Virus record (IMG/VR): IMGVR_UViG_3300023179_003795
Location: 1-64,000 of that record
Reading direction: 5' to 3' (one strand)
Length of the DNA: 64,000 nucleotides
From: a virus
Lineage: Duplodnaviria > Heunggongvirae > Uroviricota > Caudoviricetes
Numbering within the stretch: the stretch's first letter is position 1; the number at the start of each line of letters is the position of its first letter. Below the pieces are notes generated by a model that was not told the DNA's origin, did not search any database, and saw only the letters and a list, made by a program, of their open reading frames with translations. Shown here one piece after another: positions 1,181 through 43,673 of this stretch. The translations under genes were made by a program, and so were the position numbers.

Positions 1181-2173
1181 TTAAAATTCGTAATTTTCAC
1201 CAACATTATTTTCATATACCTCACCCTGAATTGTTTCCATTGGTGACATTCCACCTTCTATATCCATTATCATTTCTTCCATTGGTGGCATTCGTTCCGG
1301 TTCTCTATCATCGTGACCAAATTCATTTTTTCTACCTTCATATTGTTTGATAAGATTATCAGTTTCAGTTTCATCCAATAAAGAAGCGTTTTGAATATTA
1401 TTTTCTTTACAGTAGTTGATGAATAATTCTTTAATGTTTAAAGGTATTGGAACAAACATCATTTCCATTTTAACATCCCAATCAGTCCAACAAGAGAACT
1501 TGTTTGAAAAATTAAACATTTCCATCATTTCACTATCATATTTAACTTCTTCTTCATCGTTATTTATAATAGATTTACTTTTTAACCCACTTAATTGGAA
1601 TTCGTTTGGATTTTTGGTTTTTAATACAGAATGATAATACGATTCATTCATATCGTAATATAAACCAATCTTTCTATTTATATTTTTTTCAACGAAATAA
1701 GCGAGAATACCTTTATCAGTATATCTATAATAATATTCAGATTGAGTTACACACCATTTAGTTCCTCTACCATAAACAGAGGCTGCGTCATATGATAACG
1801 GTAAGAATAACATATACTTATCATCTTCATAAAGGACTTTAATTTCTTTTTTTGCTTTACCAACTGATTTTGTTAAAGTCGCTTCTTTAATTGATTGTTT
1901 AACAGTTGATAGACTTTTATATTGATTTAAGTCAGGTTTTTCAATTAAACCGTTTGTTGCCAATTCATCAAATTTATTTAGGATTTCTAAAATGTATTCC
2001 ATTTCATTTATTGCGGTAATTTCAAAATCACTTGATAGATTTTTTGTAAATCTAACTAAATGTTCTGTATATTTTTTTGTTTTAGAATTGTCAATATTAT
2101 TTGCCAATTCAATAAAATCAATAGGTTTGATTTTATTTTTAAATCTTTCTCTAATTGTGTCAATTTTAGCCAT
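1181..2173 (-). CDS. Hypothetical protein; member 1 of a 7-paralog family with a C-x-YG-x-G-T-K-W-C core
   Basis: 330 aa ORF. Core is LPLSYDAASVYGRGTKWCVTQSEYYYRYTDKGILAYF, preceded by a basic stretch and followed by an acidic C-terminal region. Same architecture as members 2-7. Confidence 0.7.
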   Translation of the reverse strand: MAKIDTIRERFKNKIKPIDFIELANNIDNSKTKKYTEHLVRFTKNLSSDFEITAINEMEYILEILNKFDELATNGLIEKPDLNQYKSLSTVKQSIKEATLTKSVGKAKKEIKVLYEDDKYMLFLPLSYDAASVYGRGTKWCVTQSEYYYRYTDKGILAYFVEKNINRKIGLYYDMNESYYHSVLKTKNPNEFQLSGLKSKSIINNDEEEVKYDSEMMEMFNFSNKFSCWTDWDVKMEMMFVPIPLNIKELFINYCKENNIQNASLLDETETDNLIKQYEGRKNEFGHDDREPERMPPMEEMIMDIEGGMSPMETIQGEVYENNVGENYEF

Positions 2174-2444
2174 TTGTATCTAAATTATATTGTGTTTTAA
2201 TATTTATTTTATTATCGTTGAAATCTTTAATAAGTGAGTCTCCAAACTCATCTACCCATTTATCATAATCGGTAATTTTTTCTTGTTCTTTAAACAAAAC
2301 TTTTAATTTACCATTATCACCAAGTATTGTTATCTTTTCTTCACCTTCAATAATATCTATTGGTGAGAAGTTAATCATTTGAGCCATTATAGCAAAAAAC
2401 TCAAATCTTGCTTTATTTTTTAATGTTTCCCTTAAATCACTCAT
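2166..2444 (-). CDS. Hypothetical protein
   Basis: 92 aa ORF overlapping the downstream gene by 8 nt, in an operon-like run of small minus-strand genes. Confidence 0.45.
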   Translation of the reverse strand: MSDLRETLKNKARFEFFAIMAQMINFSPIDIIEGEEKITILGDNGKLKVLFKEQEKITDYDKWVDEFGDSLIKDFNDNKINIKTQYNLDTNG

Positions 2445-2656
2445 TGTTCAATTCTATATTCATTATGTTTTATAATCCATTTAATTTCACCATCTTTGTA
2501 TAATAATAATTGACCTTCATCGGTTATTATTACTTTATCACAAACATAAGTTGTATCTGTAATAACTTTGGTTTGTTTAGTTGTTTCAATATCACAAGAT
2601 AAGATATTAAATATCAATATCACTCCAATTATACGGAATACCATTGTCATAATCAA
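2441..2656 (-). CDS. Hypothetical small protein with an N-terminal hydrophobic segment
   Basis: 71 aa ORF with an ATGA start/stop overlap to the downstream gene. Begins with a hydrophobic stretch (VFRIIGVILIFNILSC). Confidence 0.4.
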   Translation of the reverse strand: MIMTMVFRIIGVILIFNILSCDIETTKQTKVITDTTYVCDKVIITDEGQLLLYKDGEIKWIIKHNEYRIEQ

Positions 2657-3247: not shown

Positions 3248-3297
3248 ATTTTTATATATAATAAATTAAAACCAAAAAAGGAAATATTTATAAAAAA

Positions 3298-5610
3298 ATG
3301 AGCGATATAAACAAAAATAAATTATTCATACCAATAACTGAATCGGAACAATCTAAGAAAGGTAAATTATTTATCCCTAGAAGATTATCAGGTGAAAATT
3401 CTAGATTTATCCAATGGAATAAGGAACAACCCATCGTAGATGGTGTTCAAATTAATCAATATACACATGATGGTAAAAAAGAAGGTATTTGGGAATTTTA
3501 TTACCCCAATGGACAATTAGATACAAAGGGTTCATTTAAAAATGATAATTATGATGGTATTTGGGAATATTATTATAGTGATGGTAAATTAGCTTCTAAG
3601 GGTTCTTATGAAAATAATAAAAAAACAGGTGTTTGGGAAGATTATTATAAAAATGGACAATTAGATTTTAAAGGTTCATTTAAAGATGGTAAAAAAAATG
3701 GTATATGGGAAAGTTATCACGATAATGGACAATTAAGGTACAAGGGTTCATATAAAAATGATAAACTAGATGGTATATGGGAAAGGTATTATAGTAATGG
3801 ACAATTAATGTTTAAAGGTTTATATAGAGATGATGAATTAATTAAATCATTACCATTAACCGAATCTGAACAACCAAAGAAAGGTAAATTATTCATACCT
3901 CGTAGATTATCAGGAGAGAATTCTAGATTTATCCAATGGAATAAGGAACAACCGATAGTTGATGGGGAACGTATTAATCAATATACACATGATGGTAAGA
4001 AAGAAGGATATTGGGAAGAAGTAGATGAAAATAATTTTTTTAGAGAAAACGGTTATTATAAAAATGGTAAAAAGGATGGTGTGTGGAAATATTTAGATTT
4101 TGATTTTATGTTATTAAGTGAAGGAACATTTAAAGATGGTAAAAAAAATGGTATATGGGAATATTATTGGAGATTTGATGGTTCATTAAAGTTAAAAGGT
4201 TTATATAAAGATGATATAAAAACAGGTATTTGGGAGTTTTATTATTATGATGAACAATTAGATAGTAAAGGTCAATTTAAGAATGATAGAAAAGATGGTA
4301 TATGGGAAGAATATTTTCCTAATGGGGGATTAAAAAGTAAGAAATTATTTGATGATGGTAAATTAATTAAAGAATTACCAATAACTGAATCAGAACAATC
4401 TAAAAAAGGTAAATTATTTATTCCTAGAAGATTATCAGGAGAGAATTCCCGATTTATCCAATGGAATAAGGAACAACCCATCGTAGATGGGAAACATATT
4501 AATCAATATACACATGATGGTAAGAAAATTGGTATATGGGAAAGGTATCATAAAAATGGACAATTATGGTCTAAAGGTTTATTTAAAGATGATAAAAAAG
4601 AAGGTATATGGGAATATTATCATTATGATGGACAATTAAGTTCTAAGGGTTTATATAAAGATGGTAAATATGATGGTATTTGGGAAAGTTATTATAGTAA
4701 TGGACAATTAGAATCTAAGGGTTTATATGAAGATGATTTAAAAAATGGTATATGGGAAGAATATAATATACGTGGTAATTTAGTGTTTAAAGGTTTATAT
4801 AGAGATGATGAATTAGTTAAAATATTACCAATAACTGAATCAAAAACCCCATCATTCTTATTAAAAGAAGAAATGGGTTTAATAAGGGAAGGGAATGTTC
4901 AGGATTATATCAATAACGTAATATCAAAAATTAAAAACTTATCTTATGAAACAAAAAAGAAATATATTTTAATAGCAATCTCAACCCTTTTAGGTTACAC
5001 ATCTTACCCTGTCATTCAATCAATGTTTGATAAATCACCAGATAAAGAAACAAAAGAAATTGTTCATAGAGTAATGAACAAAAAAAATAATTTTTCTATG
5101 TTTAAAGATGGAACAAAATTCCGTTTATCTAAAAAAGGTTTTCAACACATTATGGATGAAGAAAAACCAAAACTTATAACATACGCATTAGGTGATGGTA
5201 AAATTACTGTTGGTTATGGACACGCTGAACCGGTTGAAACAACCAAACTTAAAGTAGGTCAAAAAATAACTAAAGAACAAGCAAAATTATACCTTAAACA
5301 AGACCTTAAAATAGCCGCAGATGGTGTTAGAAGAATGTTTAATGATTGGAAAAAACAAGATAAAAACTATAAAGTTACTCAAGATATGTTTGATGCTTTA
5401 GTTTCAATGGCTTTTAATATGGGAGTATCAGGTCTTAGAAATACTAATTTAGTTGATTATCTTAGAGATGGTGATTATAAAACCGCAGGACAACTTATTA
5501 AACAAACAAATATTGATAATGATTCATTTCCAGGTCTTGAAAAAAGAAGAAATAAAGAATCCAATATGTTTTTATCGTATTTGTTACAAAAAAATAAAAT
5601 AAATGCTTAA
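3298..5610 (+). CDS. Modular MORN-repeat protein with a C-terminal GH24 (T4-type) lysozyme domain
   Basis: 770 aa. Three modules each begin with [IL]P[IL]TESEQ.KKGKLFIPRRLSGENSRFIQWNKEQPIVDG and are followed by about 6 MORN repeats (G.WE.YY.NGQL..KG.YK.G...G). The last about 150 aa (about 5155..5610) match T4 lysozyme blocks (TVGYGH ... RR.KESNMF versus T4 TIGIGH ... RAKRVITTF). The start is preceded by atatttataaaaaaATG. Confidence 0.85.
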   Translation: MSDINKNKLFIPITESEQSKKGKLFIPRRLSGENSRFIQWNKEQPIVDGVQINQYTHDGKKEGIWEFYYPNGQLDTKGSFKNDNYDGIWEYYYSDGKLASKGSYENNKKTGVWEDYYKNGQLDFKGSFKDGKKNGIWESYHDNGQLRYKGSYKNDKLDGIWERYYSNGQLMFKGLYRDDELIKSLPLTESEQPKKGKLFIPRRLSGENSRFIQWNKEQPIVDGERINQYTHDGKKEGYWEEVDENNFFRENGYYKNGKKDGVWKYLDFDFMLLSEGTFKDGKKNGIWEYYWRFDGSLKLKGLYKDDIKTGIWEFYYYDEQLDSKGQFKNDRKDGIWEEYFPNGGLKSKKLFDDGKLIKELPITESEQSKKGKLFIPRRLSGENSRFIQWNKEQPIVDGKHINQYTHDGKKIGIWERYHKNGQLWSKGLFKDDKKEGIWEYYHYDGQLSSKGLYKDGKYDGIWESYYSNGQLESKGLYEDDLKNGIWEEYNIRGNLVFKGLYRDDELVKILPITESKTPSFLLKEEMGLIREGNVQDYINNVISKIKNLSYETKKKYILIAISTLLGYTSYPVIQSMFDKSPDKETKEIVHRVMNKKNNFSMFKDGTKFRLSKKGFQHIMDEEKPKLITYALGDGKITVGYGHAEPVETTKLKVGQKITKEQAKLYLKQDLKIAADGVRRMFNDWKKQDKNYKVTQDMFDALVSMAFNMGVSGLRNTNLVDYLRDGDYKTAGQLIKQTNIDNDSFPGLEKRRNKESNMFLSYLLQKNKINA
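4377..4639 (+). repeat. About 263-bp segment identical (inverted) to 31083..31345
   Basis: Spot-checked nucleotide identity over the leader + first MORN repeats (KKGKLFIPRR ... EGIWEYYHYDGQL). A second about 85-bp identical block lies at about 4726..4812 / 30893..30979. Confidence 0.8.
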
Positions 5611-5630
5611 TATTGTATATTTATATAGAT

Positions 5631-7472
5631 ATGGGATTTTTACAATTTTTATTCGAAGGTAGGGTTGATGATTTTAAAAAATTATTTAAGGACAAATATA
5701 CAACCCCTGAACAAATAGACGCTATTATCAAAGTTTCATCTGAAGTAGATGATAAACACAAATATTTAATTTGGTTAGCAAAAACACTTACCAAACCAGT
5801 ATTCAATAATGAAATTGCTTTCGGTGAAGAATTAGCGGAAGCACAAGAACTTCTAATGAAGTTTAAAACAATTGGTCCTAATCTACCAATTAAAGATATT
5901 TCACAATATAAAAACATATCTGAATTAGCAGACGCGATTAAAACTTACGAAAATAGACAAAGAAGAACAATTAAAAAGGTTGATGGTGCTGATATAATCT
6001 ATGATGACGATGATTATACAATTGTCCACCCAAAAGAATATTTCGCATCTTGTTATTACGGTGAAGGTTCTAAATGGTGTACATCATCTAAAAATACTGA
6101 TAGTCATTGGTATTCATATAATAAAGAAGCGAAATTGTTTTATTTTTTATCAAAGAAATTACCTACAAGTAATGACTTTTATAAAGTAGCGTTAGAACAA
6201 AAGTATGATGGAAAAAGAATTTTTTGGAATGCACCTGATAAACCTTTTGCTTCTGGTTGGATATTAGGGACTGATTATATGAACGATTTACTCGAAGTTG
6301 TAGATCAATATATGAAAGACAATTATTCAAGAGAAATTGGTATATTCTCAGACGAACAAAAAGCAAAAATTGAAGCAGAAATTGAAAGACAAAGATTACA
6401 AAGGATTGAAACCCAACGAATAATTAATCAAAAAAGAAGAGATGCTGAAAGTAGAAGGGAAACCGATGAATGGAATCCTGAAGAAGTTACTCACGGTGAA
6501 GTTGGATCACACGCTTGGGCTTTATTCACTTATTTAACCAGATATGAAAATCTTGTACCGAAAGAACCGGGAGATACCGAAAGACTTGAATTTATTAATT
6601 CTGAATTAGATAGGTTAGGTGAATTACAAAGTCAATATGAGGTTGAGGGTAGGGATTTAACTGGTATTGATGCTGAGATTTCAGCATTAGAAGAAGAAAA
6701 AGATGAGTTAGAAAAAAGAGTTGATGTATATGATATGATACCTGAAGGTGGTGATTATACTAATATGTCAAGATTTAGTGTGACAAATCCTGACTATGAT
6801 GGATATGAATGGACTGTCGGTGATGATGATCAAATTAAACAAGCCGCTTTTGATAGTGCTGAATCCTTAATTGACGACATAGGGTATGAAGGATTTAACA
6901 GTTATTTGGTTGAACGACATATTGATGCTGACGCTGTGGCTAGTGAGGCGAGAGATAGTTATGAATATTGGGTTCGTGATAATCCTGAGTCGTATTTAGA
7001 TGAAACAGATAGAGATTTAAGCAAATCACAACAAAAAGAGATTGGTGAATATCAAGAAAAGATTGATAAATACACTTCTTTCCGTGAAAAAGCAACTGAA
7101 CGTCAGGAAAATTATGATTCGGATAGTAGAGAATGGAAAGCACTTGAAAAGGGTATTGATAAACTAACGGATTTAATATCTGACCTTGAATATGATATTG
7201 AAAACATTAAAGAAGAACCGGATGGTGATTGGGATGAAGATAAAATTGAGGAAAAGATTGATGATTTGGTTGATGATGTAAAACGTAATCCATTAGATTG
7301 GTTAAAAGAAATGGGTATTGAAAAATATGATGATTATATAAATAAATATGAGTTTATTGAGGATATAATTGATTCTGATGGGTATTATCAAACATTAAAT
7401 AGTTATAATGGTGATGGTGATACTGTTGAATGGGATGGTGAGACATATCATATAATGAATACAGATAGATAA
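5631..7472 (+). CDS. Hypothetical protein; member 2 of the C-x-YG-x-G-T-K-W-C paralog family with a long acidic C-terminal extension
   Basis: Core is VHPKEYFASCYYGEGSKWCTSSKNTDSHWYSYNKEAKLFYFL. The track start at 5613 lies inside the gtatatttatatagat promoter-like motif. A start at 5631 (MGFLQ...) reproduces the gtatttatatagatATG arrangement seen at 23410 and 31389. The C-terminal about 350 aa are D/E-rich and coiled-coil-like. Confidence 0.65.
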   Translation: MGFLQFLFEGRVDDFKKLFKDKYTTPEQIDAIIKVSSEVDDKHKYLIWLAKTLTKPVFNNEIAFGEELAEAQELLMKFKTIGPNLPIKDISQYKNISELADAIKTYENRQRRTIKKVDGADIIYDDDDYTIVHPKEYFASCYYGEGSKWCTSSKNTDSHWYSYNKEAKLFYFLSKKLPTSNDFYKVALEQKYDGKRIFWNAPDKPFASGWILGTDYMNDLLEVVDQYMKDNYSREIGIFSDEQKAKIEAEIERQRLQRIETQRIINQKRRDAESRRETDEWNPEEVTHGEVGSHAWALFTYLTRYENLVPKEPGDTERLEFINSELDRLGELQSQYEVEGRDLTGIDAEISALEEEKDELEKRVDVYDMIPEGGDYTNMSRFSVTNPDYDGYEWTVGDDDQIKQAAFDSAESLIDDIGYEGFNSYLVERHIDADAVASEARDSYEYWVRDNPESYLDETDRDLSKSQQKEIGEYQEKIDKYTSFREKATERQENYDSDSREWKALEKGIDKLTDLISDLEYDIENIKEEPDGDWDEDKIEEKIDDLVDDVKRNPLDWLKEMGIEKYDDYINKYEFIEDIIDSDGYYQTLNSYNGDGDTVEWDGETYHIMNTDR

Positions 7473-7494: not shown

Positions 7495-8478
7495 ATGACA
7501 AAAAATGAAGCAAAAAGAGCCTTTTTGGATAAAGGTATATTGAAAAAAGATGCGTTTGATAGATTTTTAAATGAAGATCCAACAACACAAAAGAAATATG
7601 TGTTTTATATGATTAAACAATATTTAAAACAATCTGATGAAGAGGGTATTCAAGTATCTGATTTATCAGCAGATGATTTAAGTATGGGTATTTTATCACC
7701 TATATTTTCATATGTGACAGAATACAACACATTATTAAATAGAGTCCCACAAGATAAAAGAGATATATATAAATTATCTTATAATGAATTGGTTAGTATT
7801 GTTGATGAATTGAACACTTCTAGTGGTGAAACTGATAGATCGTCATTAAGGAAAAGAGCACGTGAAAATTCTGATAATTTTAATGAATTAGGTATTGTAG
7901 AGATTCCAGGTGTATTAGTTGTTGCACCATATAATCACGACGCTATTTGTTGGTATGGTCAAGGAACAAGATGGTGTGTGGCTATGGATTCCGCTCCAAA
8001 CCATTGGGTGAATTATTACACCACACAAAAAAATACTTTTTATATTATAAGTGCTACAAATGATGCCGTTAGAAACAAAATTAAAGAACATTATAAAAAT
8101 AAATGGGAACGAATGGGTTTAGGTAGACCAACAGGGAGTCCACCAAAAATAAAATGGGTGTTAGTTAAAAACGATAAAGACGTGTCTGAAATATCAACCG
8201 AAAATAAAAATGAAGCGGCTGAACTATTCAAAGAAAGATTAAATTTACCATCATTAAAAGGATATGATATTGAAAACTATGGTTATAGAAACCTATATAA
8301 AGTAGCGTTTTTAGTTCCACCAACAAGAGATAGTATGGGTGACGAAATAAAGAATGAAAAAGGTGAATATATACCTAATATGAAAAATGCACAGATTTTT
8401 TCTTCTGACGATATTTCATTTAATAATGGATGGGAAGAATACTTTAAAGTAATTGGTTTATATGATGTTTTTATTTAA
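7495..8478 (+). CDS. Hypothetical protein; member 3 of the C-x-YG-x-G-T-R-W-C paralog family
   Basis: 327 aa. Core is VVAPYNHDAICWYGQGTRWCVAMDSAPNHWVNYYTTQKNTFYII, with an N-terminal DPTTQKKY motif shared with other members. The start follows tatatttatatatATG. Confidence 0.7.
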   Translation: MTKNEAKRAFLDKGILKKDAFDRFLNEDPTTQKKYVFYMIKQYLKQSDEEGIQVSDLSADDLSMGILSPIFSYVTEYNTLLNRVPQDKRDIYKLSYNELVSIVDELNTSSGETDRSSLRKRARENSDNFNELGIVEIPGVLVVAPYNHDAICWYGQGTRWCVAMDSAPNHWVNYYTTQKNTFYIISATNDAVRNKIKEHYKNKWERMGLGRPTGSPPKIKWVLVKNDKDVSEISTENKNEAAELFKERLNLPSLKGYDIENYGYRNLYKVAFLVPPTRDSMGDEIKNEKGEYIPNMKNAQIFSSDDISFNNGWEEYFKVIGLYDVFI

Positions 8479-9451: not shown

Positions 9452-9683
9452 TATCATCAACCCAAATAGGGGTTTTTTCTCCAACGTAAGCACCTGAAAC
9501 ATTAAAATCAAAGTATTCAATAGCCTCCACCTCATTCATTTCCCTACAAAGAATTTCAATACATTTAGATACCGAATAAACCAATCTCATAGATTTAATA
9601 TCAATACCAATGAGAGCCTCATCAAAACCATCGGCTTTAAGGAAATTCTCATCAGGGTATTTTTCAATAATACTATCAATCAT
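9441..9683 (-). CDS. Hypothetical protein
   Basis: 80 aa ORF convergent with the plus-strand block; its ATGA start overlaps the stop of the next gene. Confidence 0.4.
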   Translation of the reverse strand: MIDSIIEKYPDENFLKADGFDEALIGIDIKSMRLVYSVSKCIEILCREMNEVEAIEYFDFNVSGAYVGEKTPIWVDDIKG

Positions 9684-10462
9684 TAGGATTTAGCCTTTAC
9701 ATTAGGTCTATCCTCAATGTGTTTGATAATCGAATCGTATACGTTAATAAACATTTCTTTGGTTCTAACACCAAATACAACGTCTTTTACTTCAGTTTTG
9801 GTATCCTGAACATTCCAAAATTCAATGTGTTTTTGAATCGCTGTAAACTTCTTACCTTTAGTATCTAATTGATTAAAATCAGAACTCAATTTATCGGATT
9901 GTAAATAAACACCAAAGGTTTCTTTCTGATGATTCTTCTTAGAGATAAAGTAAATCAATACATTCTTTGAGTAATTATAAAAGTGATTTGACGTATCTTT
10001 TGAAGCCGTACACCATTTGGTATTAGAACCATAGGTTAATGAAGCCTCATACGTTAAAGGTGTTCCAATCATATAATCATCATCTTCAAAATATTTATGG
10101 AATTCTTTCTCCCTACGTTTTAACTCACGTTGTTGTTTAGCAACTTCCAATACTTTATTGAAATCTTCAACAGATTTAAACTTAAAAATGTCCGAATCAG
10201 AACCCTTAATAAAGCCTTCTTTTACCAATTCATCAAAAGCAGCACAATCTTTGTTAAAATCGTTTTCCAACCAATCGGTAAATTCATCAAGAATTGATTT
10301 TTTAAGGTTTTCAATTTCATCAGTACAAGACACTAACCATTTAGTGTATTTAAACTGACTTGATTTGTTTTGAGAAGACGGATCATACTTTTTTAGTAAG
10401 TCCAAAAGATTGATGTTTAACTGATCTTTGTATTTTTCTTTGATTTCTGTTATACTAATCAT
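9683..10462 (-). CDS. Hypothetical protein; member 4 of the C-x-YG-x-x-T-K-W-C paralog family
   Basis: 259 aa. Core is GTPLTYEASLTYGSNTKWCTASKDTSNHFYNYSKNVLIYFI, with an N-terminal DPSSQNKSSQFKY motif and a basic RELKRREKE stretch before the core. Confidence 0.7.
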   Translation of the reverse strand: MISITEIKEKYKDQLNINLLDLLKKYDPSSQNKSSQFKYTKWLVSCTDEIENLKKSILDEFTDWLENDFNKDCAAFDELVKEGFIKGSDSDIFKFKSVEDFNKVLEVAKQQRELKRREKEFHKYFEDDDYMIGTPLTYEASLTYGSNTKWCTASKDTSNHFYNYSKNVLIYFISKKNHQKETFGVYLQSDKLSSDFNQLDTKGKKFTAIQKHIEFWNVQDTKTEVKDVVFGVRTKEMFINVYDSIIKHIEDRPNVKAKS

Positions 10463-33906: not shown

Positions 33907-35085
33907 TTACTTACTAAATTTAATAGCTCTATTAACCATTACTATATTTTCTTTAATCATATTTTCAATTGTTTCTTCATCAACATTCTTTTTAACAAAG
34001 AATACAATATTAGGATGTCTATCCGGTATTACTTCATAATTATCACCCACATAATGTTTAAACAAATCAATAAAATTATTTGATTTATAAATTCTCGCCA
34101 TTTGACTTTTAACTGTTGATATTGATATAACGTCAGGGTGGTATTTATCAATATACATTTCTAAAATAATTGGACACATACTAACCAATTTAAGCCATGC
34201 AGATACTGAACTATTAACATTATTATCTGTAAAATTAAAACCAATATTTACAACGCCACCTCTACCTTCATTAGCAACAATTTCACCTTCAATATCTAAA
34301 CCATTACCAACTATCGCAGTTATTGATTTATATTTTTCTTTAATATCTAAAATTTCTAAAGTTTGTTTTTTATCAAAACTTTCTTTTATTGAATCATAGG
34401 TTATTTGTTTAATGATATTTTTATTTTTATCATATATATTCCAAACACCAACCTTTTTACTACCTTTATAATGACCTGAAGCTAATAAATAACCTTGTTT
34501 TGTGTATAGTAACCACTCACCTTCTTTTTTACCATCCACATATTCACCAGACTTTTCAATCCTACCATTATCCCAATATTCTTCCCAATAACCATTCTTT
34601 TCAAGGTTATCATTATACTGATTTATGGATTTATCACCACTATTTAATTGATTGGTATTATGTTTTTTAATATAATCTTTTATATAGGTATCCACTAAAT
34701 TCATAATATTACTTGGTATATTAAATGGGTTTTTTTCTTTAATTGGAATACCTGTATTATTATTATCTGTTTTATCATACCAACCATTTAACTTTTTATA
34801 ATGATTGTCACTTAAACTAAAAAAATAACTATATTTTTTATCTTGTTCTTTTTTATTTATAAAATAAATCAAAATACCATTTTTAGAATATCTACTAAAA
34901 TGACTTTCATTGGACTTTACAGACACACACCACGAAGTAAATGCACCATACTTACAAGACGCATTATGAGTTAATGGTTTTACTACAACCCATTCATCAT
35001 TTTCATATATTTTATCACGCTCATTGGGTTTTACTTTACCTTCAATAAGAAAATCTTTTAATATTTTTACTATTAAATCTTTCAT
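33907..35085 (-). CDS. Hypothetical protein; member 5 of the C-x-YG-x-x-T-S-W-C paralog family with C-terminal MORN-like repeats
   Basis: 392 aa. Core is VVKPLTHNASCKYGAFTSWCVSVKSNESHFSRYSKNGILIYFI; later NGYWEEYWDNGRIEKSGEYVDGKKEGEWLLYTKQGYL is MORN-like. Confidence 0.7.
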   Translation of the reverse strand: MKDLIVKILKDFLIEGKVKPNERDKIYENDEWVVVKPLTHNASCKYGAFTSWCVSVKSNESHFSRYSKNGILIYFINKKEQDKKYSYFFSLSDNHYKKLNGWYDKTDNNNTGIPIKEKNPFNIPSNIMNLVDTYIKDYIKKHNTNQLNSGDKSINQYNDNLEKNGYWEEYWDNGRIEKSGEYVDGKKEGEWLLYTKQGYLLASGHYKGSKKVGVWNIYDKNKNIIKQITYDSIKESFDKKQTLEILDIKEKYKSITAIVGNGLDIEGEIVANEGRGGVVNIGFNFTDNNVNSSVSAWLKLVSMCPIILEMYIDKYHPDVISISTVKSQMARIYKSNNFIDLFKHYVGDNYEVIPDRHPNIVFFVKKNVDEETIENMIKENIVMVNRAIKFSK

Positions 35086-35204: not shown

Positions 35205-36233
35205 TCACCAGTAACCTGAGGTGCTACCCTTAACAAGACCCGATTTATTTAATCTACACGCCCAATACCCTGCGGTCATTCTATCTTTCTTTTTAGGACA
35301 ATTGTGTCTTGCTGAAAAACTCTTTCTTGCTTTAGAATTACCTGTTTTCGCTTTTAAACCACCTTTTTTATCACCAAATGTAATCTTTTTTATATTACCT
35401 GTTGATGGGTTTTTAACATATACAACATACTTCTTACCTGAACCAGAGTTTCTTTTAATCTTACCCAATGGTGGATGTTTCTTTTCCTTTTCTTCAATGA
35501 TACTTTCAACTAATCCTTGTGATAAATCTGTCATATATTCATTCATTTCATTAGCATAAGTTTTACTATTTAATGTTCCTGTATAATAATCAGATTTTTC
35601 AAAATCAATAAAGTTTTCATAAGACAAATCACCCCAACCTTTTTCTTTAAGATATTCTTCAATTTCATCAACATCTACCTCACCACTAATATCATCATCA
35701 TCATACTCCCCACCATCATATTCAATTAAAAATACATCTAATGGAACTACCTCACCTCTAAACTTACCAAATCTACCAATATCAGTAGTTTCAAATAATT
35801 CTTCATCGTAATCATTTAATTCAATTGAACCATTATCATATAATCTTCTTGTTTCAGATAATAAATCAATATGGGCTTCACTACCTGATCTGTATATACT
35901 TTCATTAACAGATATACCATTTATTAAATGATATTTTAATTCTTCACTTATTACTTTTTTCATACCTATACTTTCATTTATATTTTTATTCCTTAATTCA
36001 TCCAAATATTTTTCAATACCATCACTATCTTCACGATCAAATACTTTTAATAATTTAACATTTTTAGTTGATATGGATTTACGATCCCCACCTTTTTTAA
36101 TATAAACCAATCTTTCATCCAATGCGTGTAATGGCACATCTTGGTATCTATATTTTTCATTGAAGTATCTCAATGGAATCATTATTTCTATTACCGCCGT
36201 TTTATTAGTCATATATGTCTTTATTATCTGCAC
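35205..36233 (-). CDS. Hypothetical protein with an acidic low-complexity core and a basic Cys-containing C-terminus
   Basis: 342 aa with EYDGGEYDDDDISGEVDVDEIEEYL and a C-terminal ...SFSARHNCPKKKDRMTAGYWACR. It overlaps the upstream gene by 29 nt; alternative starts are at 36212 and 36182. Confidence 0.5.
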   Translation of the reverse strand: MQIIKTYMTNKTAVIEIMIPLRYFNEKYRYQDVPLHALDERLVYIKKGGDRKSISTKNVKLLKVFDREDSDGIEKYLDELRNKNINESIGMKKVISEELKYHLINGISVNESIYRSGSEAHIDLLSETRRLYDNGSIELNDYDEELFETTDIGRFGKFRGEVVPLDVFLIEYDGGEYDDDDISGEVDVDEIEEYLKEKGWGDLSYENFIDFEKSDYYTGTLNSKTYANEMNEYMTDLSQGLVESIIEEKEKKHPPLGKIKRNSGSGKKYVVYVKNPSTGNIKKITFGDKKGGLKAKTGNSKARKSFSARHNCPKKKDRMTAGYWACRLNKSGLVKGSTSGYW

Positions 36234-37596
36234 TCATATTTATTATATAATATTTTTGACCTTTATATGTCCAAGTTATTGGTTCCGCTTTAGCGTCAAT
36301 ACAATATGTTGGATAATCTTTTACTAATCTATCTATATCAAAATAATTATCATAGATAAATAACATCCCAAGTAAACCATCAATATTACTATATTTTGGT
36401 GGTTGATTACCTGTTCCTTTATATTTATTTTTGTCATAAAACCCAACCGGATCTTCCATAAATTCTTTTTTTAAGTCATTAATTTCAGGTGATTTTTCAA
36501 TTTCAGCGTCGGTAAGATTATCAATATCGTATTCATTAAAAAATCTAAAACGACTACTATCCATCAATATATCATTAAATAAATCATCCCAAGAAAAATA
36601 TCTTAAAATTTTATTTTCACCAACAAATTTAATTAAATTATTTGTTTTGGTTTTACTTGAATTTAAAATATCGTATTTATCCATATCCTCTATAACATCA
36701 CCTATTGTTTCATCATTAACAACAATATATTCCCCAATAGTTCTTTGACCCCTATTAAGTTTTTTACGTAAATAAAATTTTGAGTCTTCAATAAACATAA
36801 TTTCAGGAAAATAATTATCACCAAGAGATTTAGTCCAATTATCAAATGCTTTAGCCATTAATTGTTTAGGTTTATCAATTATATTAGTTTTCCAATAGTT
36901 TTTTATACTACTACTAACTTTTTTTGGGTATATAATACTACCAGCATAATCATCATATTCAATTTTATCCACATCACCAAATTTAACCGTTAATCTATCA
37001 TCTATAGCATTATATCCTTGAACCTGACCAAAAGCATCAACAAATAACGCTGTTTTATAGTCATTACCATTACTAACTTTATTTAAGATAAAAAACAAAT
37101 TACCTTTTTCCATATAATCTTCGTATGTTGATTCATCTGTAACACACCATCTCGTTCCTTTACCATAAAAACAAGAAGCCTCCGCTGTTGATGGATATAA
37201 TATGACAATACCATCAAACTCATCAACCATATCGATATCATTCTTTAATTGTATCTTTTTGTTCGACCTTTGAAAAGCCTTTTCAGCCGCCATTAAAAAT
37301 GAATCTATATCATTATATGAATACAAATCAGTTGATAACTCAGTATTTTTAAATCTTTGTGGATAGTTATCTAATACTAGTAAAGCATCTCCAACCTTAT
37401 CCCAATATTCGTTATCAAAATATCTAACATTTCTAATACCAAACTCTTCAACAAATCTCTGATATAACCAATAGAGATATTTTTTATTTGGTGAAGGATC
37501 ATAGGGATATAACTCAGATATTAGTTTTGATTCTAATGTGGTTGATTCTGGTATATTATACTTTTTTAAAAATTTTTCTAAAAAATTTTCTTCCAT
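36205..37596 (-). CDS. Hypothetical protein; member 6 of the C-x-YG-x-G-T-R-W-C paralog family
   Basis: 463 aa. Core is VILYPSTAEASCFYGKGTRWCVTDESTYEDYMEKGNLFFIL, with an N-terminal DPSPNKKYLYW motif. Confidence 0.7.
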   Translation of the reverse strand: MEENFLEKFLKKYNIPESTTLESKLISELYPYDPSPNKKYLYWLYQRFVEEFGIRNVRYFDNEYWDKVGDALLVLDNYPQRFKNTELSTDLYSYNDIDSFLMAAEKAFQRSNKKIQLKNDIDMVDEFDGIVILYPSTAEASCFYGKGTRWCVTDESTYEDYMEKGNLFFILNKVSNGNDYKTALFVDAFGQVQGYNAIDDRLTVKFGDVDKIEYDDYAGSIIYPKKVSSSIKNYWKTNIIDKPKQLMAKAFDNWTKSLGDNYFPEIMFIEDSKFYLRKKLNRGQRTIGEYIVVNDETIGDVIEDMDKYDILNSSKTKTNNLIKFVGENKILRYFSWDDLFNDILMDSSRFRFFNEYDIDNLTDAEIEKSPEINDLKKEFMEDPVGFYDKNKYKGTGNQPPKYSNIDGLLGMLFIYDNYFDIDRLVKDYPTYCIDAKAEPITWTYKGQKYYIINMSADNKDIYD

Positions 37597-38048
37597 TACA
37601 TATTTTTAATTTCATCAACAAGTTTTTTATTTAAACCAACTTTCTTAGATGTTTTATCGTCCAACCAATATACGTCAGCATATTTACCACTTTTAGGGTG
37701 TTTTAAATAAGGTCCAAGTTCAAACTTACCACCTTCAAGTTTTCTTTTACCCCAATCACTAATAAGACTTTTCGCTTCATTATGTACCTCACTTTCTAAC
37801 TCTTTGTTTTCCTCATCCTTAGCACCTTGCTTACCTTTAAACCTTATAGATAATACAGCACCAGATGGTTCACCCAATTCAACATTAACGTGATCTCCGT
37901 GTCTTTTTGATAAGTCTTTGAAGTCACCGTATAAATCTTTAATGTGTGATTTTAATTTGTCGAACGTTACTTCATTAAACGCCCATCCTTCATTCATTAA
38001 TTCATTTGCCAATCTATCAATTTGGCTTTCTGTTAATCTTATTTTCAT
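37596..38048 (-). CDS. Hypothetical protein with a leader-like N-terminus (MKIRLTESQIDRLANELMNEGWAF)
   Basis: 150 aa. The start follows ctatttatatataaataaaaaaaacatacaaatATG. Confidence 0.5.
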   Translation of the reverse strand: MKIRLTESQIDRLANELMNEGWAFNEVTFDKLKSHIKDLYGDFKDLSKRHGDHVNVELGEPSGAVLSIRFKGKQGAKDEENKELESEVHNEAKSLISDWGKRKLEGGKFELGPYLKHPKSGKYADVYWLDDKTSKKVGLNKKLVDEIKNM

Positions 38049-40617: not shown

Positions 40618-40618
40618 T

Positions 40619-40843: not shown

Positions 40844-40846
40844 AAA

Positions 40847-41095
40847 ATGAAAAAAAAAGAATATAACTTTATTAAAATTGAAAGGCCTAAGTTTGAAGAA
40901 AAACCAGCCCAAATAATACAAGATATTAAATCAATTGATGGTGAAATTGAATTGGAAGAAAAAAGAACCAATAAATATAAACAGGAGTTGATTAAAGAAT
41001 TACAAAAAATAAAAAAAGATGAAATTCCTGTTATCCCTAATAAAATAACATTATGGATGAAAATAAAGTTTTTATTTACCGGTAAATGGCATTAA
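40847..41095 (+). CDS. Hypothetical charged protein
   Basis: 82 aa, K/E-rich. Confidence 0.4.
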   Translation: MKKKEYNFIKIERPKFEEKPAQIIQDIKSIDGEIELEEKRTNKYKQELIKELQKIKKDEIPVIPNKITLWMKIKFLFTGKWH

Positions 41096-41892
41096 AAAGA
41101 CTTACAAAACAACAACGCTATTATAGGAAAAATAAAGCGAAGTATAAGAAGTGGAGAAAAAAAAGAGTTAAAAAGTTAGTTGAAAATGTTGAGGTGACTA
41201 ATGTTAAAAAACTCAAAAAGAAAATACACAATAAGAAAAAACTAAACAAAAAAAGAAATAAAAATAAAGTTGTTAGGAAAAAAAACGCCACTTATTTTAT
41301 TGCAACAATCATGAATAATAAACCATTCAAAATAATTAATAGATATGTCGACTACTCTTGGGCTTCTAAAAAATGGGATCAAGTATTGGAAGAACAAAAA
41401 AACCTATTCTATCCCGGACTTAAATACCCCTTAATGTTTTTATATAAGGTAAAACCGGGTGAAGAAAATACAATCACCCAAAGAAATAGTATTGGTAAAA
41501 TTATTGAAACCAAAATACCTGGATATAAAATTATATTCCAAGACACATATTATAACGAAAGAAAAATATACTTTAAAAACAAATTAGTTAGAGTTCCAGC
41601 ATACTTCATACTTCAACTATTAAATGTAAATAATAATATTAAACAATGTTTTCTTATTAAGAATAAAATCTGTGTGGAAGATGAAGGTAAGTATTTTGTA
41701 TTCTCTTGTAAAGATGCCGATGAAGCATCATCAATTAAAAATAGACTAAGAGAAAAATATATGGAATTAGGTAAAACTAATGTCCTATTCTTTAATGATG
41801 TAAATACTATATCAATGAAAGAAGAAATCTTTGATAGTATAGTTAAACAAGGAATATGTAATATAGAATATCTTTATAGGGGTGATAATTAA
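41086..41892 (+). CDS. Hypothetical protein with an extremely basic N-terminal 90 aa (K/R-rich)
   Basis: 268 aa beginning KQQRYYRKNKAKYKKWRKKRVKKL ... KKKLNKKRNKNKVVRKKNA, which suggests nucleic-acid binding. Confidence 0.5.
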   Translation: MALKRLTKQQRYYRKNKAKYKKWRKKRVKKLVENVEVTNVKKLKKKIHNKKKLNKKRNKNKVVRKKNATYFIATIMNNKPFKIINRYVDYSWASKKWDQVLEEQKNLFYPGLKYPLMFLYKVKPGEENTITQRNSIGKIIETKIPGYKIIFQDTYYNERKIYFKNKLVRVPAYFILQLLNVNNNIKQCFLIKNKICVEDEGKYFVFSCKDADEASSIKNRLREKYMELGKTNVLFFNDVNTISMKEEIFDSIVKQGICNIEYLYRGDN

Positions 41893-43673
41893 TTATCGTC
41901 AAATAACTTATAGTTATATAATAAACTATAAAACTCATCAACATTATTTAAAATATAATGACTATAACCATTTTCAGTACTTAATGTGACAGATGTTGTT
42001 AAATCATCCATATCAATACCATTTATTCTAAAACTAATATCTTTGTTTCTTGGTAATTTATACCACTTATCAATTCGATATTTTTCAGTTATCTTATCAA
42101 ACATTTCCTTATATTGTGAGAAATTTTCATTTTCCTCAATCTTATCTTTTATTTTTTCCAAGTTTCGTTCCACTTCACGTTGAAATCCTTCTTCGTCAAA
42201 AGCATTCCAATCAATCATTTCGTATGAATTTTCAGACCAACCACCAACACTATCATATTCAGTTATTCTATATAGTAAAGACTCAATTGTACTCTTCTCC
42301 GGTTGGTGTTCTTCAAATAATTTAATTAAATTATTTATGGTTGTTTGATACTCACCAAAACATTTTTTACTTGATTTTTTAAAACCATATTTTTCAAAAT
42401 AATTACATAATTCACTTTCAACAGTATCTCTAACCCCTATCTCAGCCGCTCTATCCATTTCCGATTGGTATTCATATGATATATCACTAGTTTCCCTATC
42501 AAACATTTTTTGTAAGGTTTTAGCAATATTACTTTTTACTTCATCATCACTTAAATCTGCGTTGACATATGTGGGTAAAATATATTTAAGTATTTCTCTT
42601 AATAATTTAGTATTCTCATCATTAAACTTATCTATTATATAACCTTCATCCCACTCTGAATCAATATCCATAGGGTAAAAATGATAATCATTATAAGAAC
42701 TATCAAGTATACTTAAAAACCATTTATCGTCATCAGATAAATCAAATACTTTTTTATAATCATCTAACCCATCAAAACTAATTTCCACTATGGATTCACC
42801 CCTATTCTCTTCATTTTTTTCAAAATCAATAACAATATCTGAAGATAGTATCTGACTTGACGTATCTTCACCTGATATATACCCCCTTAATAAATCAATA
42901 ATAGGTAATTGCTCAGTAAGTTTATTTATTACATTTGTTAATTTAGGGAACTTCTCATATAAAAAATCAATACCCCTTTCTTTATCGAGTGAATCAAATA
43001 CATATTTATTTAGTTTTTTACCATCTTTTTCTAAATATAACGCAACTTTATTTCCCTTGTTTTTTTTATCAATAAAATAATATAAAATACCGTCCCTTGT
43101 ATGTTTATCATAATGATAACGATCATTTTTCATTGAAGTACACCATTTGGTTTCAAAACCATAAAAACAAGATGATTCCCATGTTAAAGGTCTAACAACC
43201 AAATAATTTGAATCTCCAAATATTTTATAAGCACCTTTTTTAGCGATTCTTTCTTCTTCAGATTTTGATTTAGTTTTTTCTAATACTTGTAACATAGCAA
43301 GAAGATAAAAAGGTATTGAATATGAATTAATGTCTTTAGGGGTTTTCTTTATCTTTTCAACGTCAATAAGATTTTTACCTTCCAAATTAACACCACTATC
43401 AATAAGTTTTTCTTCAAATTGTTTTACAATATCATCATCAATTCTTTTATAATTATTTTCAAAAGGTATAATAATTTTAGTTATCATATCTTCAATCTTA
43501 TCATAATCTTTAAACTTTAAAGAAGAATCTAAATAATTACTAATCCATTCAGCGTATTTACCTTGTGATGTTGGATCAATAGAAAACATTCTATCAATGA
43601 ATTCACCATTGGTAGAATGTTTCTTTTTTGTTTTTTCAATAATTTCTTTTTTACCCTCTAATAAAATATCCAT
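41889..43673 (-). CDS. Hypothetical protein; member 7 of the C-x-YG-x-x-T-K-W-C paralog family (long form)
   Basis: 594 aa. Core is VVRPLTWESSCFYGFETKWCTSMKNDRYHYDKHTRDGILYYFI, with an N-terminal DPTSQGKYAEW motif and a long acidic/aromatic C-terminal extension. Confidence 0.7.
   Translation of the reverse strand: MDILLEGKKEIIEKTKKKHSTNGEFIDRMFSIDPTSQGKYAEWISNYLDSSLKFKDYDKIEDMITKIIIPFENNYKRIDDDIVKQFEEKLIDSGVNLEGKNLIDVEKIKKTPKDINSYSIPFYLLAMLQVLEKTKSKSEEERIAKKGAYKIFGDSNYLVVRPLTWESSCFYGFETKWCTSMKNDRYHYDKHTRDGILYYFIDKKNKGNKVALYLEKDGKKLNKYVFDSLDKERGIDFLYEKFPKLTNVINKLTEQLPIIDLLRGYISGEDTSSQILSSDIVIDFEKNEENRGESIVEISFDGLDDYKKVFDLSDDDKWFLSILDSSYNDYHFYPMDIDSEWDEGYIIDKFNDENTKLLREILKYILPTYVNADLSDDEVKSNIAKTLQKMFDRETSDISYEYQSEMDRAAEIGVRDTVESELCNYFEKYGFKKSSKKCFGEYQTTINNLIKLFEEHQPEKSTIESLLYRITEYDSVGGWSENSYEMIDWNAFDEEGFQREVERNLEKIKDKIEENENFSQYKEMFDKITEKYRIDKWYKLPRNKDISFRINGIDMDDLTTSVTLSTENGYSHYILNNVDEFYSLLYNYKLFDDN

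What the first reader, a model, noticed from the sequence alone, without database searches (positions are those of the whole stretch)
1181..43673. Seven-member paralog family with a conserved C-x-YG-x-G-[ST]-[KR]-W-C core; uncharacterised, candidate virion-delivered effector family
Seven ORFs share a conserved N-terminal region of about 170-200 aa and differ in their C-terminal extensions. The ORFs are 1181..2173, 5631..7472, 7495..8478, 9683..10462, 33907..35085, 36205..37596 and 41889..43673. The shared region carries a DP[ST]xQxKY..W motif and a basic K/R stretch. Its core is [P]-L-[ST]-x-[ED]-A-S-C-x-YG-x-G-T-[KR]-W-C-[VT]-x(7-9)-[HY]-[FWY]-x-x-Y-x(4-6)-[IL]-x-[YF]-F-[IL], with two invariant Cys flanking a Gly-rich loop and a downstream His/Tyr. 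I cannot match this core to any domain I know. The C-terminal extensions range from none to about 350 aa and are acidic, coiled-coil, aromatic-rich or MORN-like. Seven copies in 64 kb that conserve a two-Cys core while the tails diversify look like an effector or anti-defence family evolving against the host. The Cys...Cys...His arrangement could be a metal site or a thiol-hydrolase active site.
Basis: seen in the sequence. Interest (0 to 1): 0.85.

Follow-up and report, generated by a model that had tools for sequence, protein, structure and literature searches.

The report
Jumbo-phage paralog family, distant PcfJ-like domain
Seven genes in this giant-phage fragment are real copies of one very large, virus-only protein family of unknown function, built from a constant module with an invariant Trp-Cys loop (a distant relative of the uncharacterised PcfJ domain) joined to different tails; one relative has been detected in phage particles.

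Summary
The seven ORFs are real homologues. All 21 BLASTP pairs are significant, leave-one-out HMM E-values run from 4e-17 to 8e-33, and exactly seven members appear in a six-frame scan. Orthologues in a related 287-kb phage contig give dN/dS of 0.05-0.29.

Some details of the finding are wrong. The first Cys is absent in 2 of 7 paralogs and in 36% of 261 wider domain instances. The His/Tyr is not conserved. ORF 33907-35085 lacks the N-terminal helical half. The invariant residues are G, T, W-C, an upstream Asp and a Pro.

The family is very large: 10,281 clusters at 50% identity. It appears restricted to viruses: one motif pattern found at least 120 IMG/VR contigs but gave no confirmed hit in 596 Gb of cellular genomes. 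Cultured carriers are all jumbo phages: Salicola SCTP-2, PA5oct-like phages and CcrBL9. PHROGs lists it as function unknown (phrog_17056 and phrog_28193).

The only recurrent link to a named domain is a weak, register-consistent match to PcfJ (PF14284), which is itself uncharacterised. No solved structure resembles the model.

The PA5oct homologue is annotated as a virion protein from mass spectrometry. Long relatives carry 2-5 tandem copies fused to LRR, Ank, HEAT or WG repeats, GNAT, ART-PolyVal and a nucleotidyltransferase.

My best reading is a constant Cys-dependent module joined to variable targeting tails, acting on the host and at least sometimes carried in the virion. The chemistry is unknown.

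The parts
1181..2173 (-). Paralog 1 (330 aa): full module plus a short acidic tail
   Evidence: The family HMM aligns to aa 1-212 (nt 1538-2173), E 7e-43. Motif AASV-YGRGTKWC is at aa 134-141 (nt 1751-1774), and the first Cys is replaced by Val. The orthologue in L001 is 64% identical with dN/dS 0.24.
5631..7472 (+). Paralog 2 (613 aa): full module plus a 345-aa acidic coiled-coil tail
   Evidence: The HMM aligns to aa 2-255 (nt 5634-6395), E 8.5e-58. Motif ASCY-YGEGSKWC is at nt 6057-6080. The tail is 29% Asp+Glu and hits DUF7365 at 8.7e-5. The gene starts 21 nt after the MORN-lysozyme gene 3298-5610. The orthologue is 87% identical with dN/dS 0.29.
7495..8478 (+). Paralog 3 (327 aa): full module plus a short aromatic tail
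   Evidence: The HMM aligns to aa 1-247 (nt 7495-8235), E 4.9e-50. Motif AICW-YGQGTRWC is at nt 7954-7977. It matches phrog_28193 at 2.3e-8. The orthologue is 74% identical with dN/dS 0.21.
9683..10462 (-). Paralog 4 (259 aa): the module alone, and the protein that was modelled
   Evidence: The HMM aligns to aa 1-248 (nt 9719-10462), E 2.5e-57. Motif ASLT-YGSNTKWC is at nt 10010-10033, and the first Cys is replaced by Leu. It is the only window protein with a Pfam PcfJ hit (E 0.009, 16.3 bits against a cut-off of 25). The AF2 model has pLDDT 78. The gene lies on the same strand as, and downstream of, TerL and portal. The orthologue is 84% identical with dN/dS 0.05.
33907..35085 (-). Paralog 5 (392 aa): alpha/beta core only, followed by MORN-like repeats and a C-terminal region
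   Evidence: The HMM aligns to aa 21-154 (nt 34624-35025), covering HMM positions 125-240 only, E 8.5e-34. Motif ASCK-YGAFTSWC is at nt 34927-34950. MORN_2 scores E 0.041, which is sub-threshold. It matches phrog_28193 at 3e-11.
36205..37596 (-). Paralog 6 (463 aa): full module plus a 197-aa aromatic-rich tail
   Evidence: The HMM aligns to aa 6-244 (nt 36865-37581), E 6.8e-41. Motif ASCF-YGKGTRWC is at nt 37144-37167. Its start overlaps the stop of 37596-38048 on the same strand.
41889..43673 (-). Paralog 7 (594 aa): full module plus a 292-aa acidic/aromatic tail
   Evidence: The HMM aligns to aa 2-252 (nt 42918-43670), E 1.7e-50. Motif SSCF-YGFETKWC is at nt 43140-43163. It matches phrog_17056 at 5.9e-11. 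Its start abuts a bS21 homologue at 43674-43859.

Best explanation
The seven genes are long-standing, functionally differentiated paralogs of a very large, virus-restricted protein family.

The shared module is about 200-250 aa. It has an N-terminal helical subdomain (DPS..KY..W, KDI..Y) and a small alpha/beta core: a beta-hairpin, then Pro, a helix, the Gly-rich loop G-x-G-T-x-W-C, a second helix and a second beta-hairpin.

This module is most likely a divergent, phage-specific branch of the PcfJ-like superfamily (PF14284).

Proposed way of working. The module is the constant working part. Its single invariant Cys sits after an invariant Trp in a Gly-rich loop, at the start of a short helix in the model, and probably acts as a reactive thiol for covalent catalysis or covalent capture of a ligand. 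The unrelated C-terminal tails direct each paralog to a different partner. In this window the tails are MORN-like, coiled-coil, acidic or aromatic. In relatives they include LRR, Ank, HEAT and WG repeats.

The proteins act on host-cell components during infection, and at least some are carried in the virion.

Shown: homology and paralogy, purifying selection, restriction to viruses, tail diversity, the set of invariant residues, the absence of any solved structural relative, and one homologue annotated as MS-detected in virions.

Inferred: the PcfJ relationship (weak statistics), the catalytic role of the Cys, targeting by the tails, the host as the target, and virion carriage of the window's own proteins.
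For: - Paralogy: all 21 BLASTP pairs are significant and leave-one-out HMM E-values run from 4e-17 to 8e-33. Exactly seven members are present.
- Real genes: orthologues are syntenic in L001/L002, with 64-87% identity and dN/dS 0.05-0.29.
- Size of the family: 10,281 clusters at E<=1e-3 and 6,112 at E<=1e-10. Many relatives carry 2-5 tandem copies.
- Restriction to viruses: one motif pattern gave 3 unconfirmed hits in 596 Gb of cellular genomes but at least 120 in IMG/VR, of which 120 of 120 were HMM-confirmed.
- Cultured carriers are all jumbo phages. SCTP-2 has 6 paralogs of 246-551 aa within 13 kb.
- Invariant residues in 261 domain instances: W 261/261, C 260/261, G 258/261, D 253/261.
- PcfJ link: PcfJ is the only recurrent Pfam hit, in 3 of 30 long relatives (best 3.5e-7) and 4 of 35 short ones (best 1.7e-4). 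An Enterococcus PcfJ HMM hits about 25 members in one consistent register. hhalign gives the same register at E 0.0014-0.0035. Foldseek against BFVD lists several 'PcfJ like' proteins at probability 0.75-0.9.
- Modularity: the tails are unrelated to each other. Relatives are fused to LRR_5, LRV, Ank, HEAT, WG, GNAT, PolyA_pol and ART-PolyVal. A PcfJ-like motif lies upstream of DGR variable regions (PMC5758913).
- Virion: PA5oct EST35_0205 is a member (E 3e-47) and is annotated 'structural protein, ESI-MS/MS' (PMC7318152).
Against: - No biochemical or genetic data exist for this family or for PcfJ in the literature held here.
- Window proteins fall below the Pfam PcfJ cut-off: the best is 16.3 bits against 25, and six of the seven give no hit. 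hhalign probability is only 9-17%.
- The His of the canonical PcfJ 'HC' is Trp here. Canonical PcfJ domains are C-terminal and lie among nucleotide-metabolism genes.
- Tandem arrays of 2-5 copies are more typical of binding modules than of enzymes.
- Virion evidence rests on one homologue in one very sensitive MS data set that also reported 7 'virion-unrelated enzymes'. I could not retrieve peptide counts.
- The paralogs sit in different transcriptional contexts: after TerL-portal, after a lysozyme, and after bS21. Uniform late expression and packaging is therefore not implied.
- None of the 30 long relatives scanned carries a MuF-type head-packaging domain.
Confidence: 0.4

Rival explanations
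1. Non-catalytic structural family. The conserved module anchors each protein to a common virion structure such as the head interior, baseplate or fibre network. The variable tails are displayed or structural parts, as with the conserved N-terminal anchors of tail fibres and spikes in branched jumbo-phage adsorption apparatuses.
For: - The PA5oct homologue is annotated as a structural protein and sits among other MS-detected structural genes. The paper links such regions to the baseplate and tail.
- ORF 9683-10462 follows TerL and portal on the same strand.
- A constant N-terminus with a variable C-terminus is the classic receptor-binding-protein layout.
- The repeat tails (MORN, LRR, WG) are binding scaffolds.
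Against: - An invariant Trp-Cys in a Gly-rich loop across 261 instances is unusual for an anchor.
- Up to 5 tandem copies occur per protein, and relatives are fused to GNAT, ART and nucleotidyltransferase enzymes.
- The probable relatives (PcfJ) occur on conjugative plasmids, which have no virion.
- One paralog is the module alone with no tail.
- In 120 other viral contigs the family is not linked to portal or TerL.
Confidence: 0.2
2. Intracellular adaptor family that is not packaged. The constant module docks onto one phage or host machine, and the variable tails recruit different host proteins to it, in the manner of F-box or BTB families. Candidates for the machine include the ClpA/B-like AAA+ protein at 46674-48680, the ribosome, or RNA polymerase.
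For: - The architecture is a constant module with variable binding tails.
- Ank, LRR, HEAT and MORN partners are typical of adaptor expansions in giant viruses.
- A ClpA/B-like AAA+ gene lies near paralogs both here and in SCTP-2.
- Paralog 41889-43673 abuts a bS21 gene.
- The paralogs lie in several different operons.
Against: - No AAA+ protein or other partner recurs next to family members in 120 IMG/VR loci.
- This reading does not account for the MS detection of the PA5oct homologue in virions.
- An invariant Cys is not expected for a pure docking surface.
Confidence: 0.2
3. One reading: a Cys...Cys...His metal site, or a thiol-hydrolase triad formed by the two Cys and the downstream His/Tyr.
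For: Five of the seven paralogs do have both Cys, and four have the His.
Against: - The first Cys is present in only 167 of 261 wider instances, being replaced by L, K or V, and is absent in 2 of 7 paralogs here.
- The His column does not reach majority (>=55%) conservation.
Confidence: 0.03
4. Selfish multi-copy mobile genes, such as a homing-endonuclease-like family, that multiplied within the genome.
For: The copies are dispersed across the genome, as with the seg and mob genes of T4-like phages. Conserved Asp, Glu and Lys residues are present.
Against: - The paralogs are old (18-31% identity).
- Four of them have syntenic orthologues in related contigs and are under purifying selection.
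- There is no nuclease fold or Pfam nuclease hit.
Confidence: 0.03

Closest known systems
PcfJ-like domain (Pfam PF14284): PcfJ of Enterococcus faecalis plasmid pCF10, and the PcfJ-domain proteins of Herelleviridae and other phages
   Same: - The core has the same order of elements: beta-hairpin, Pro, helix, a Gly-containing loop ending in x-Cys-[VT]-[GAS], helix, Gly, and a beta-hairpin rich in I/F/K/R.
- The Cys and Gly align in every comparison.
- PcfJ is the only Pfam family hit repeatedly.
- Both are carried only by mobile elements.
- Both have unknown function.
   Different: - Window proteins score below the Pfam cut-off.
- Canonical PcfJ has E-G...H-C where this family has Y-G-x-G-T-x-W-C.
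- The canonical domain sits at the C-terminus of 450-830 aa proteins, whereas here it is N-terminal and preceded by its own helical subdomain.
- Canonical members are single-copy. In Herelleviridae they lie among nucleotide-metabolism genes. On pCF10 the gene lies next to an AcrIIA9-family gene.
- This branch was not confirmed in any cellular genome.
PHROG families phrog_17056 and phrog_28193 (unknown function)
   Same: All seven proteins match one or both families, with E from 1.5e-5 to 3e-11. These are the existing catalogue entries for this family.
   Different: The PHROGs carry no annotation. The window proteins align to only part of the 420- and 681-position profiles.
Pseudomonas jumbo phage PA5oct EST35_0205 (QCG76086.1) and the Salicola phage SCTP-2 paralogs gp34, 37, 40, 45, 46 and 48
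   Same: - Full-length matches to the family HMM: 3e-47 for PA5oct and 3e-22 to 3e-37 for SCTP-2.
- SCTP-2 shows the same pattern of clustered paralogs with tails of different length.
- SCTP-2 shares gene content with this window, including a T4 gp63-like RNA ligase and a ClpA-like ATPase.
   Different: - Sequence identity to the family is only ~33-43% over the aligned stretches: 33% between ORF 9683-10462 and SCTP-2, and 37-43% between the family consensus and SCTP-2 or the PA5oct-like phages.
- PA5oct-like phages have one copy.
- Only PA5oct has proteomic data.
Polyvalent proteins of phages and conjugative elements (Iyer et al. 2017, PMC5512222)
   Same: Long relatives of 1,000-2,400 aa combine several copies of this module with ART-PolyVal, GNAT, nucleotidyltransferase and repeat domains. 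That is the polyvalent-protein layout proposed to be delivered with the invading DNA.
   Different: - The paper does not mention PcfJ or this module.
- The seven window proteins are one module plus one tail, not polyvalent.
- No MuF packaging domain was seen.
T4 Alt and the internal proteins IPI-III, and the paralogous head/inner-body protein families of phiKZ-like jumbo phages (from general knowledge)
   Same: These are precedents for virion-packaged, ejected host-directed proteins and for paralog families among jumbo-phage virion proteins.
   Different: - There is no sequence or fold relationship.
- A T4-type capsid-targeting and cleavage signal could not be established. The 'h-L-x-E-G-R' element at some N-termini also occurs at internal repeats, so it is part of the domain.

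Membership tests
PcfJ-like (Pfam PF14284) | Score at or above the Pfam gathering cut-off (25 bits) | tested here: not met
   The best window protein is 9683-10462 at 16.3 bits, E 0.009. The other six give no PcfJ hit at E<=1. Some relatives do hit PcfJ: 3 of 30 long ones (best E 3.5e-7) and 4 of 35 short ones (best 1.7e-4).
PcfJ-like (Pfam PF14284) | Profile-level homology to authentic PcfJ proteins | tested here: inconclusive
   An HMM of Enterococcus PcfJ hits about 25 family members, always aligning PcfJ 285-410 to family 70-200, with a best E of 3.5e-6 in a 214-sequence set. The top three hits in the window's six-frame set are family members, at E 0.018-0.08. hhalign gives the same register but only 9-17% probability, E 0.0014-0.0035.
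PcfJ-like (Pfam PF14284) | Core signature E-G-x3-x-H-C-V-[GAS] | tested here: inconclusive
   The Gly and Cys are conserved and align. Glu is replaced by Tyr and His by an invariant Trp.
PcfJ-like (Pfam PF14284) | Structural similarity to PcfJ-like proteins | tested here: inconclusive
   Foldseek against BFVD lists several 'PcfJ like protein' models at E 0.02-0.1, probability 0.54-0.82, and TM only 0.19-0.30. Family members proper score E 1e-9 to 1e-5. No PcfJ structure has been solved.
PHROG phrog_17056 / phrog_28193 | Significant HMM match | tested here: met
   All seven match, with E from 1.5e-5 to 3.1e-11.
Polyvalent proteins (Iyer et al. 2017) | At least two distinct conflict-related domains in one polypeptide of a phage or conjugative element | tested here: not met
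   Each window protein has one module plus an unassigned tail. The feature is met only by long relatives.
T4-type head-internal, ejected proteins | N-terminal capsid-targeting sequence cleaved at L/I-x-E by the prohead protease, and presence in the virion | tested here: inconclusive
   ORFs 5631 ('LFE-G') and 41889 ('LLE-G') carry such a motif, but the same element occurs at internal domain repeats. No prohead protease was identified in the window. Presence in the virion is known only for the PA5oct homologue.
Cys/His metal-binding site or thioredoxin-type WCxxC | Two or more conserved Cys/His ligands, or a CxxC motif on a thioredoxin fold | tested here: not met
Known anti-phage defence or anti-defence families | Match to a PADLOC model | tested here: not met
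   No credible PADLOC hit for any of the seven.
Homing endonuclease / PD-(D/E)XK nuclease | Nuclease fold or motif, and variable presence at collinear sites | tested here: not met

The most novel reading that the evidence does not exclude
The Trp-Cys module (PcfJ-like superfamily) is a new class of thiol-dependent enzyme or covalent-capture module. Invading DNA elements deploy it at the moment of entry: jumbo phages carry it in the virion, and conjugative plasmids encode it beside anti-CRISPR genes. Interchangeable C-terminal scaffolds (MORN, LRR, Ank, HEAT, WG, DGR-diversified lectin folds) set the host target. On this reading it would be a widespread, so far unrecognised 'first-strike' effector system of mobile elements.
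Probability: 0.2. Interest if true: 0.8.

Novelty: new variant of a known kind. Interest (0 to 1): 0.5.

Why it matters
More than ten thousand sequence clusters share this module, and no confirmed copy turned up in the cellular reference genomes. It is multiplied within jumbo-phage genomes and keeps one Trp-Cys pair invariant even in 28% GC genomes. Despite that, it has no name, no structure and no assay.

Tying it to PcfJ, even weakly, joins two sets of 'hypothetical proteins' that currently sit apart: those of phages and those of conjugative plasmids. It also gives a concrete experimental handle: one cysteine, a tail-less natural member of 259 aa, and cultured carriers in PA5oct, SCTP-2 and CcrBL9.

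If the module turns out to be an enzyme delivered with the DNA, it would add a major family to the known set of phage host-takeover and anti-defence proteins. If it is only a structural anchor, it is still a useful marker for a large group of uncultured jumbo phages.

Tried and rejected
- A near-identity search of 20 kb of the window against GenBank phages found no match.
- A word-indexed homologue search with the 90-position core alignment found nothing. The exhaustive profile search was needed.
- Sequence searches of the PDB with three profiles found nothing.
- The AFDB50 library was unavailable.
- PADLOC and NCBIfam gave nothing.
- The thioredoxin/DsbE 'WC' idea was rejected: no thioredoxin fold and no second Cys.
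- A PTP-like 'HCx5R' reading of canonical PcfJ was rejected by inspection of the 10 phage PcfJ sequences, because the Arg is not conserved.
- The N-terminal L-x-E-G-R element as a prohead-protease site was rejected as evidence, because it recurs at internal repeats.
- The T4 late-promoter motif TATAAATA is only marginally enriched (38 against 25 expected) and is not positioned upstream of the paralogs.
- Neighbourhood clustering around 120 IMG/VR members found no partner that could be interpreted functionally. The top clusters have no Pfam match, and a DNA methyltransferase recurs in about 26-28 loci, probably a lineage effect.
- Four literature searches for PcfJ gave no functional study.
- The polyvalent-protein paper does not mention the domain.
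- The PA5oct supplementary proteomics table is not held.

Full report
WHAT THE WINDOW IS. The window is 28% GC and encodes typical large-phage genes. These include a large terminase (15386-17074), a portal (13534-15363), a lysozyme with MORN repeats (3298-5610), PhoH, an SbcC-like protein, two RNA ligases, a ClpA/B-like AAA+ protein and a sigma-70 factor. There is no near-identical record in GenBank phages. Orthologues of its proteins lie on metagenomic contigs of up to 287-312 kb with the same gene order (TerL, T4-type portal, the paralogs, lysozyme). The window therefore comes from an uncultured jumbo phage. One paralog is found with an identical sequence on a Logan assembly contig.

THE OBSERVATION. 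All seven ORFs exist. Homology is beyond doubt. All 21 BLASTP pairs are significant, and leave-one-out HMMs recover each member at E 4e-17 to 8e-33. Six-frame scans with a narrow and a broad HMM find exactly seven members. The paralogs are old, at 18-31% identity to one another. The four that I could compare have syntenic orthologues in a related phage, with 64-87% identity and dN/dS 0.05-0.29; TerL gives 91% and 0.07. These are real genes under purifying selection. Their tails run from 0 to 345 aa and are unrelated to one another.

Some details of the finding fail.
- The first Cys is missing in two paralogs and in 36% of 261 wider domain instances.
- The His/Tyr is not conserved.
- ORF 33907-35085 has only the alpha/beta core.
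- The invariant set is G (258/261), T (238/261), W (261/261), C (260/261), an upstream Asp in K-D-I (253/261), a Pro (238/261), a Tyr (235/260), a Lys (219/257) and a late Asp (220/247).

HOW BIG AND WHERE. An exhaustive profile search of 1.84 billion representatives found 10,281 clusters at E<=1e-3 and 6,112 at E<=1e-10. Many proteins of 1,000-2,400 aa carry 2-5 tandem copies, each with the G-T-x-W-C loop.

A degenerate DNA pattern for Y-G-x-G-T-[KR]-W-C-T-A gave three hits in 596 Gb of bacterial and archaeal genomes. All three were in MAGs and none was confirmed by the HMM.

Among cultured phages a consensus tblastn finds only jumbo phages: Salicola SCTP-2 (440 kb, 7 places), eleven PA5oct-like Pseudomonas phage records and Caulobacter CcrBL9. 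SCTP-2 has six paralogs of 246-551 aa within 13 kb, which is the same pattern as here. PHROGs already holds the family as phrog_17056 and phrog_28193, both of unknown function.

WHAT IT RESEMBLES. Pfam gives one weak hit among the seven, to PcfJ: 9683-10462 at E 0.009, 16.3 bits against a cut-off of 25. Several lines make this more than noise.
- PcfJ is the only Pfam family hit repeatedly by relatives: 3 of 30 long ones (best 3.5e-7) and 4 of 35 short ones (best 1.7e-4).
- An HMM built from authentic Enterococcus PcfJ proteins hits about 25 family members in one register. Its three best hits in the whole window are family members.
- hhalign, run with three different PcfJ profiles, always aligns E-I-D-x-h-h-F-L-x-P...E-G-x-x-L-x-H-C-V-G-S of PcfJ with Y-E-D-D-x-W-h-V-x-P...Y-G-x-G-T-x-W-C-T-A of the family. 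The probability is only 9-17%.
- Foldseek against viral models lists several 'PcfJ like' proteins, ranked below the true family members.

I rate superfamily-level homology at about 0.6-0.7, unproven.

The differences are clear. Canonical PcfJ has His-Cys rather than Trp-Cys. Its domain is C-terminal. It is single-copy. In Herelleviridae it lies among nucleotide-metabolism genes, and in pCF10 it lies next to an AcrIIA9-family gene.

No functional study of PcfJ is in the literature held here. A DGR survey notes a PcfJ-like motif upstream of a variable region in CPR target genes.

CLUES TO FUNCTION.
- Architecture. One constant module is joined to unrelated tails. Long relatives add LRR_5, LRV, Ank, HEAT and WG repeats, GNAT, a PolyA-polymerase-type nucleotidyltransferase and ART-PolyVal. 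This is the layout of polyvalent, host-directed proteins, although the paper that defined that class does not mention this module.
- Virion. PA5oct EST35_0205 is a full-length member (3e-47) annotated 'structural protein, ESI-MS/MS'. The study reports 93 virion-associated proteins from a very sensitive method, including 7 'virion-unrelated enzymes'. I could not see peptide counts.
- Context in the window is mixed. ORF 9683-10462 follows TerL and portal on the same strand. ORFs 5631 and 7495 follow the MORN-lysozyme gene with gaps of about 21-22 nt. ORF 41889 directly follows a bS21 homologue and a possible lysis cassette. No partner gene recurs near family members in 120 other viral contigs.
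- Chemistry. A single invariant Cys preceded by an invariant Trp in a Gly-rich loop suggests a reactive thiol. Nothing I ran identifies the reaction.

VERDICT. Its proposed two-Cys/His site is wrong. An arms race is not visible at the orthologue scale I could test. Virion delivery has one indirect support.

The best reading (0.4) is a divergent, virus-only branch of the PcfJ-like superfamily, acting as a Cys-dependent constant module with variable targeting tails and directed at the host. Rivals are a non-catalytic virion anchor (0.2) and a non-packaged intracellular adaptor (0.2).

On novelty, it is a new variant of a known but functionally blank kind of domain. Interest is moderate (0.5). 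The family's size, its restriction to viruses and its invariant Trp-Cys make it a worthwhile target, but nothing here yet shows a new mechanism.

Noticed in passing
window 43674-43859 (-): A 61-aa ribosomal protein bS21 homologue directly abuts the start of paralog 41889-43673. Pfam PF01165 is precomputed for it on an identical Logan contig. Upstream on the same strand lie two small ORFs with hydrophobic, membrane-like ends (43861-44235 and 44232-44543) and an Amidase_2 gene (45084-45659), which may form a lysis cassette.
   Followed up: partly
window 27518-28693 (-): A phage-encoded protein matches DruA of the Druantia defence system (Pfam DruA 6e-13; PADLOC DruA 4.6e-7; phrog_19197 8e-91). 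This is a defence-system component homologue in a phage.
   Followed up: no
window 3298-5610 (+); also 30520-31389 (-), 38083-40290 (-), 33907-35085 (-): The lysozyme carries a 480-aa N-terminal extension of MORN_2 repeats that is absent from the 286-aa orthologue in the related contig L001. MORN_2 repeats recur in three other genes, so the repeat module appears to be shuffled among genes of this phage.
   Followed up: partly
L001 3244-6378 and 1-1045, compared with window 13534-15363 and 17558-18244: The related 287-kb contig has an intein in its T4-type portal (1044 aa against 609 aa here). Its PhoH gene also carries Hom_end and LAGLIDADG homing-endonuclease domains, apparently another intein (at least 572 aa against 228 aa here). 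The window's versions lack both insertions.
   Followed up: no
L003 20874-22984 (pCF10): pcfJ on pCF10 overlaps a gene annotated as a Cas9 inhibitor of the AcrIIA9 family, in a block that also holds DpnD/PcfM. An ssb and a thermonuclease lie further along the plasmid, beyond the Tn916-like insert. This could be an anti-defence or leading-region context for canonical PcfJ.
   Followed up: no
L130-L139 (Herelleviridae and other phages): Canonical PcfJ domains occur in 301 GenBank phage records. In several Herelleviridae they lie next to nucleotide-metabolism genes (RNase H, thymidylate synthase, dUTPase, guanylate kinase), which suggests early or middle expression there.
   Followed up: partly
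window 57783-58610 (-) and IMG/VR loci L008-L127: Homologues of this ORF lie within 4 kb of family members in 26 of 120 viral contigs. Its matches look like an N6/N4 DNA methyltransferase. The association is probably a lineage effect, and the two are not adjacent in this window.
   Followed up: partly
BFVD hits; IMG/VR locus L052: Family members also appear in bins labelled as giant viruses: Marseillevirus LCMAC201/202 (one fused to ankyrin repeats, one annotated as glutamate-tRNA ligase) and a GVMAG contig. These could reflect true presence in eukaryotic viruses or phage contigs that were mis-binned.
   Followed up: no
window 24316-25539 (-) and 38083-40290 (-): One protein is SPFH/Band-7-like (Pfam 2.3e-5; phrog_11908). 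A 735-aa MORN protein gives a weak SidM_N hit (4.5e-4). Both have unknown roles.
   Followed up: no
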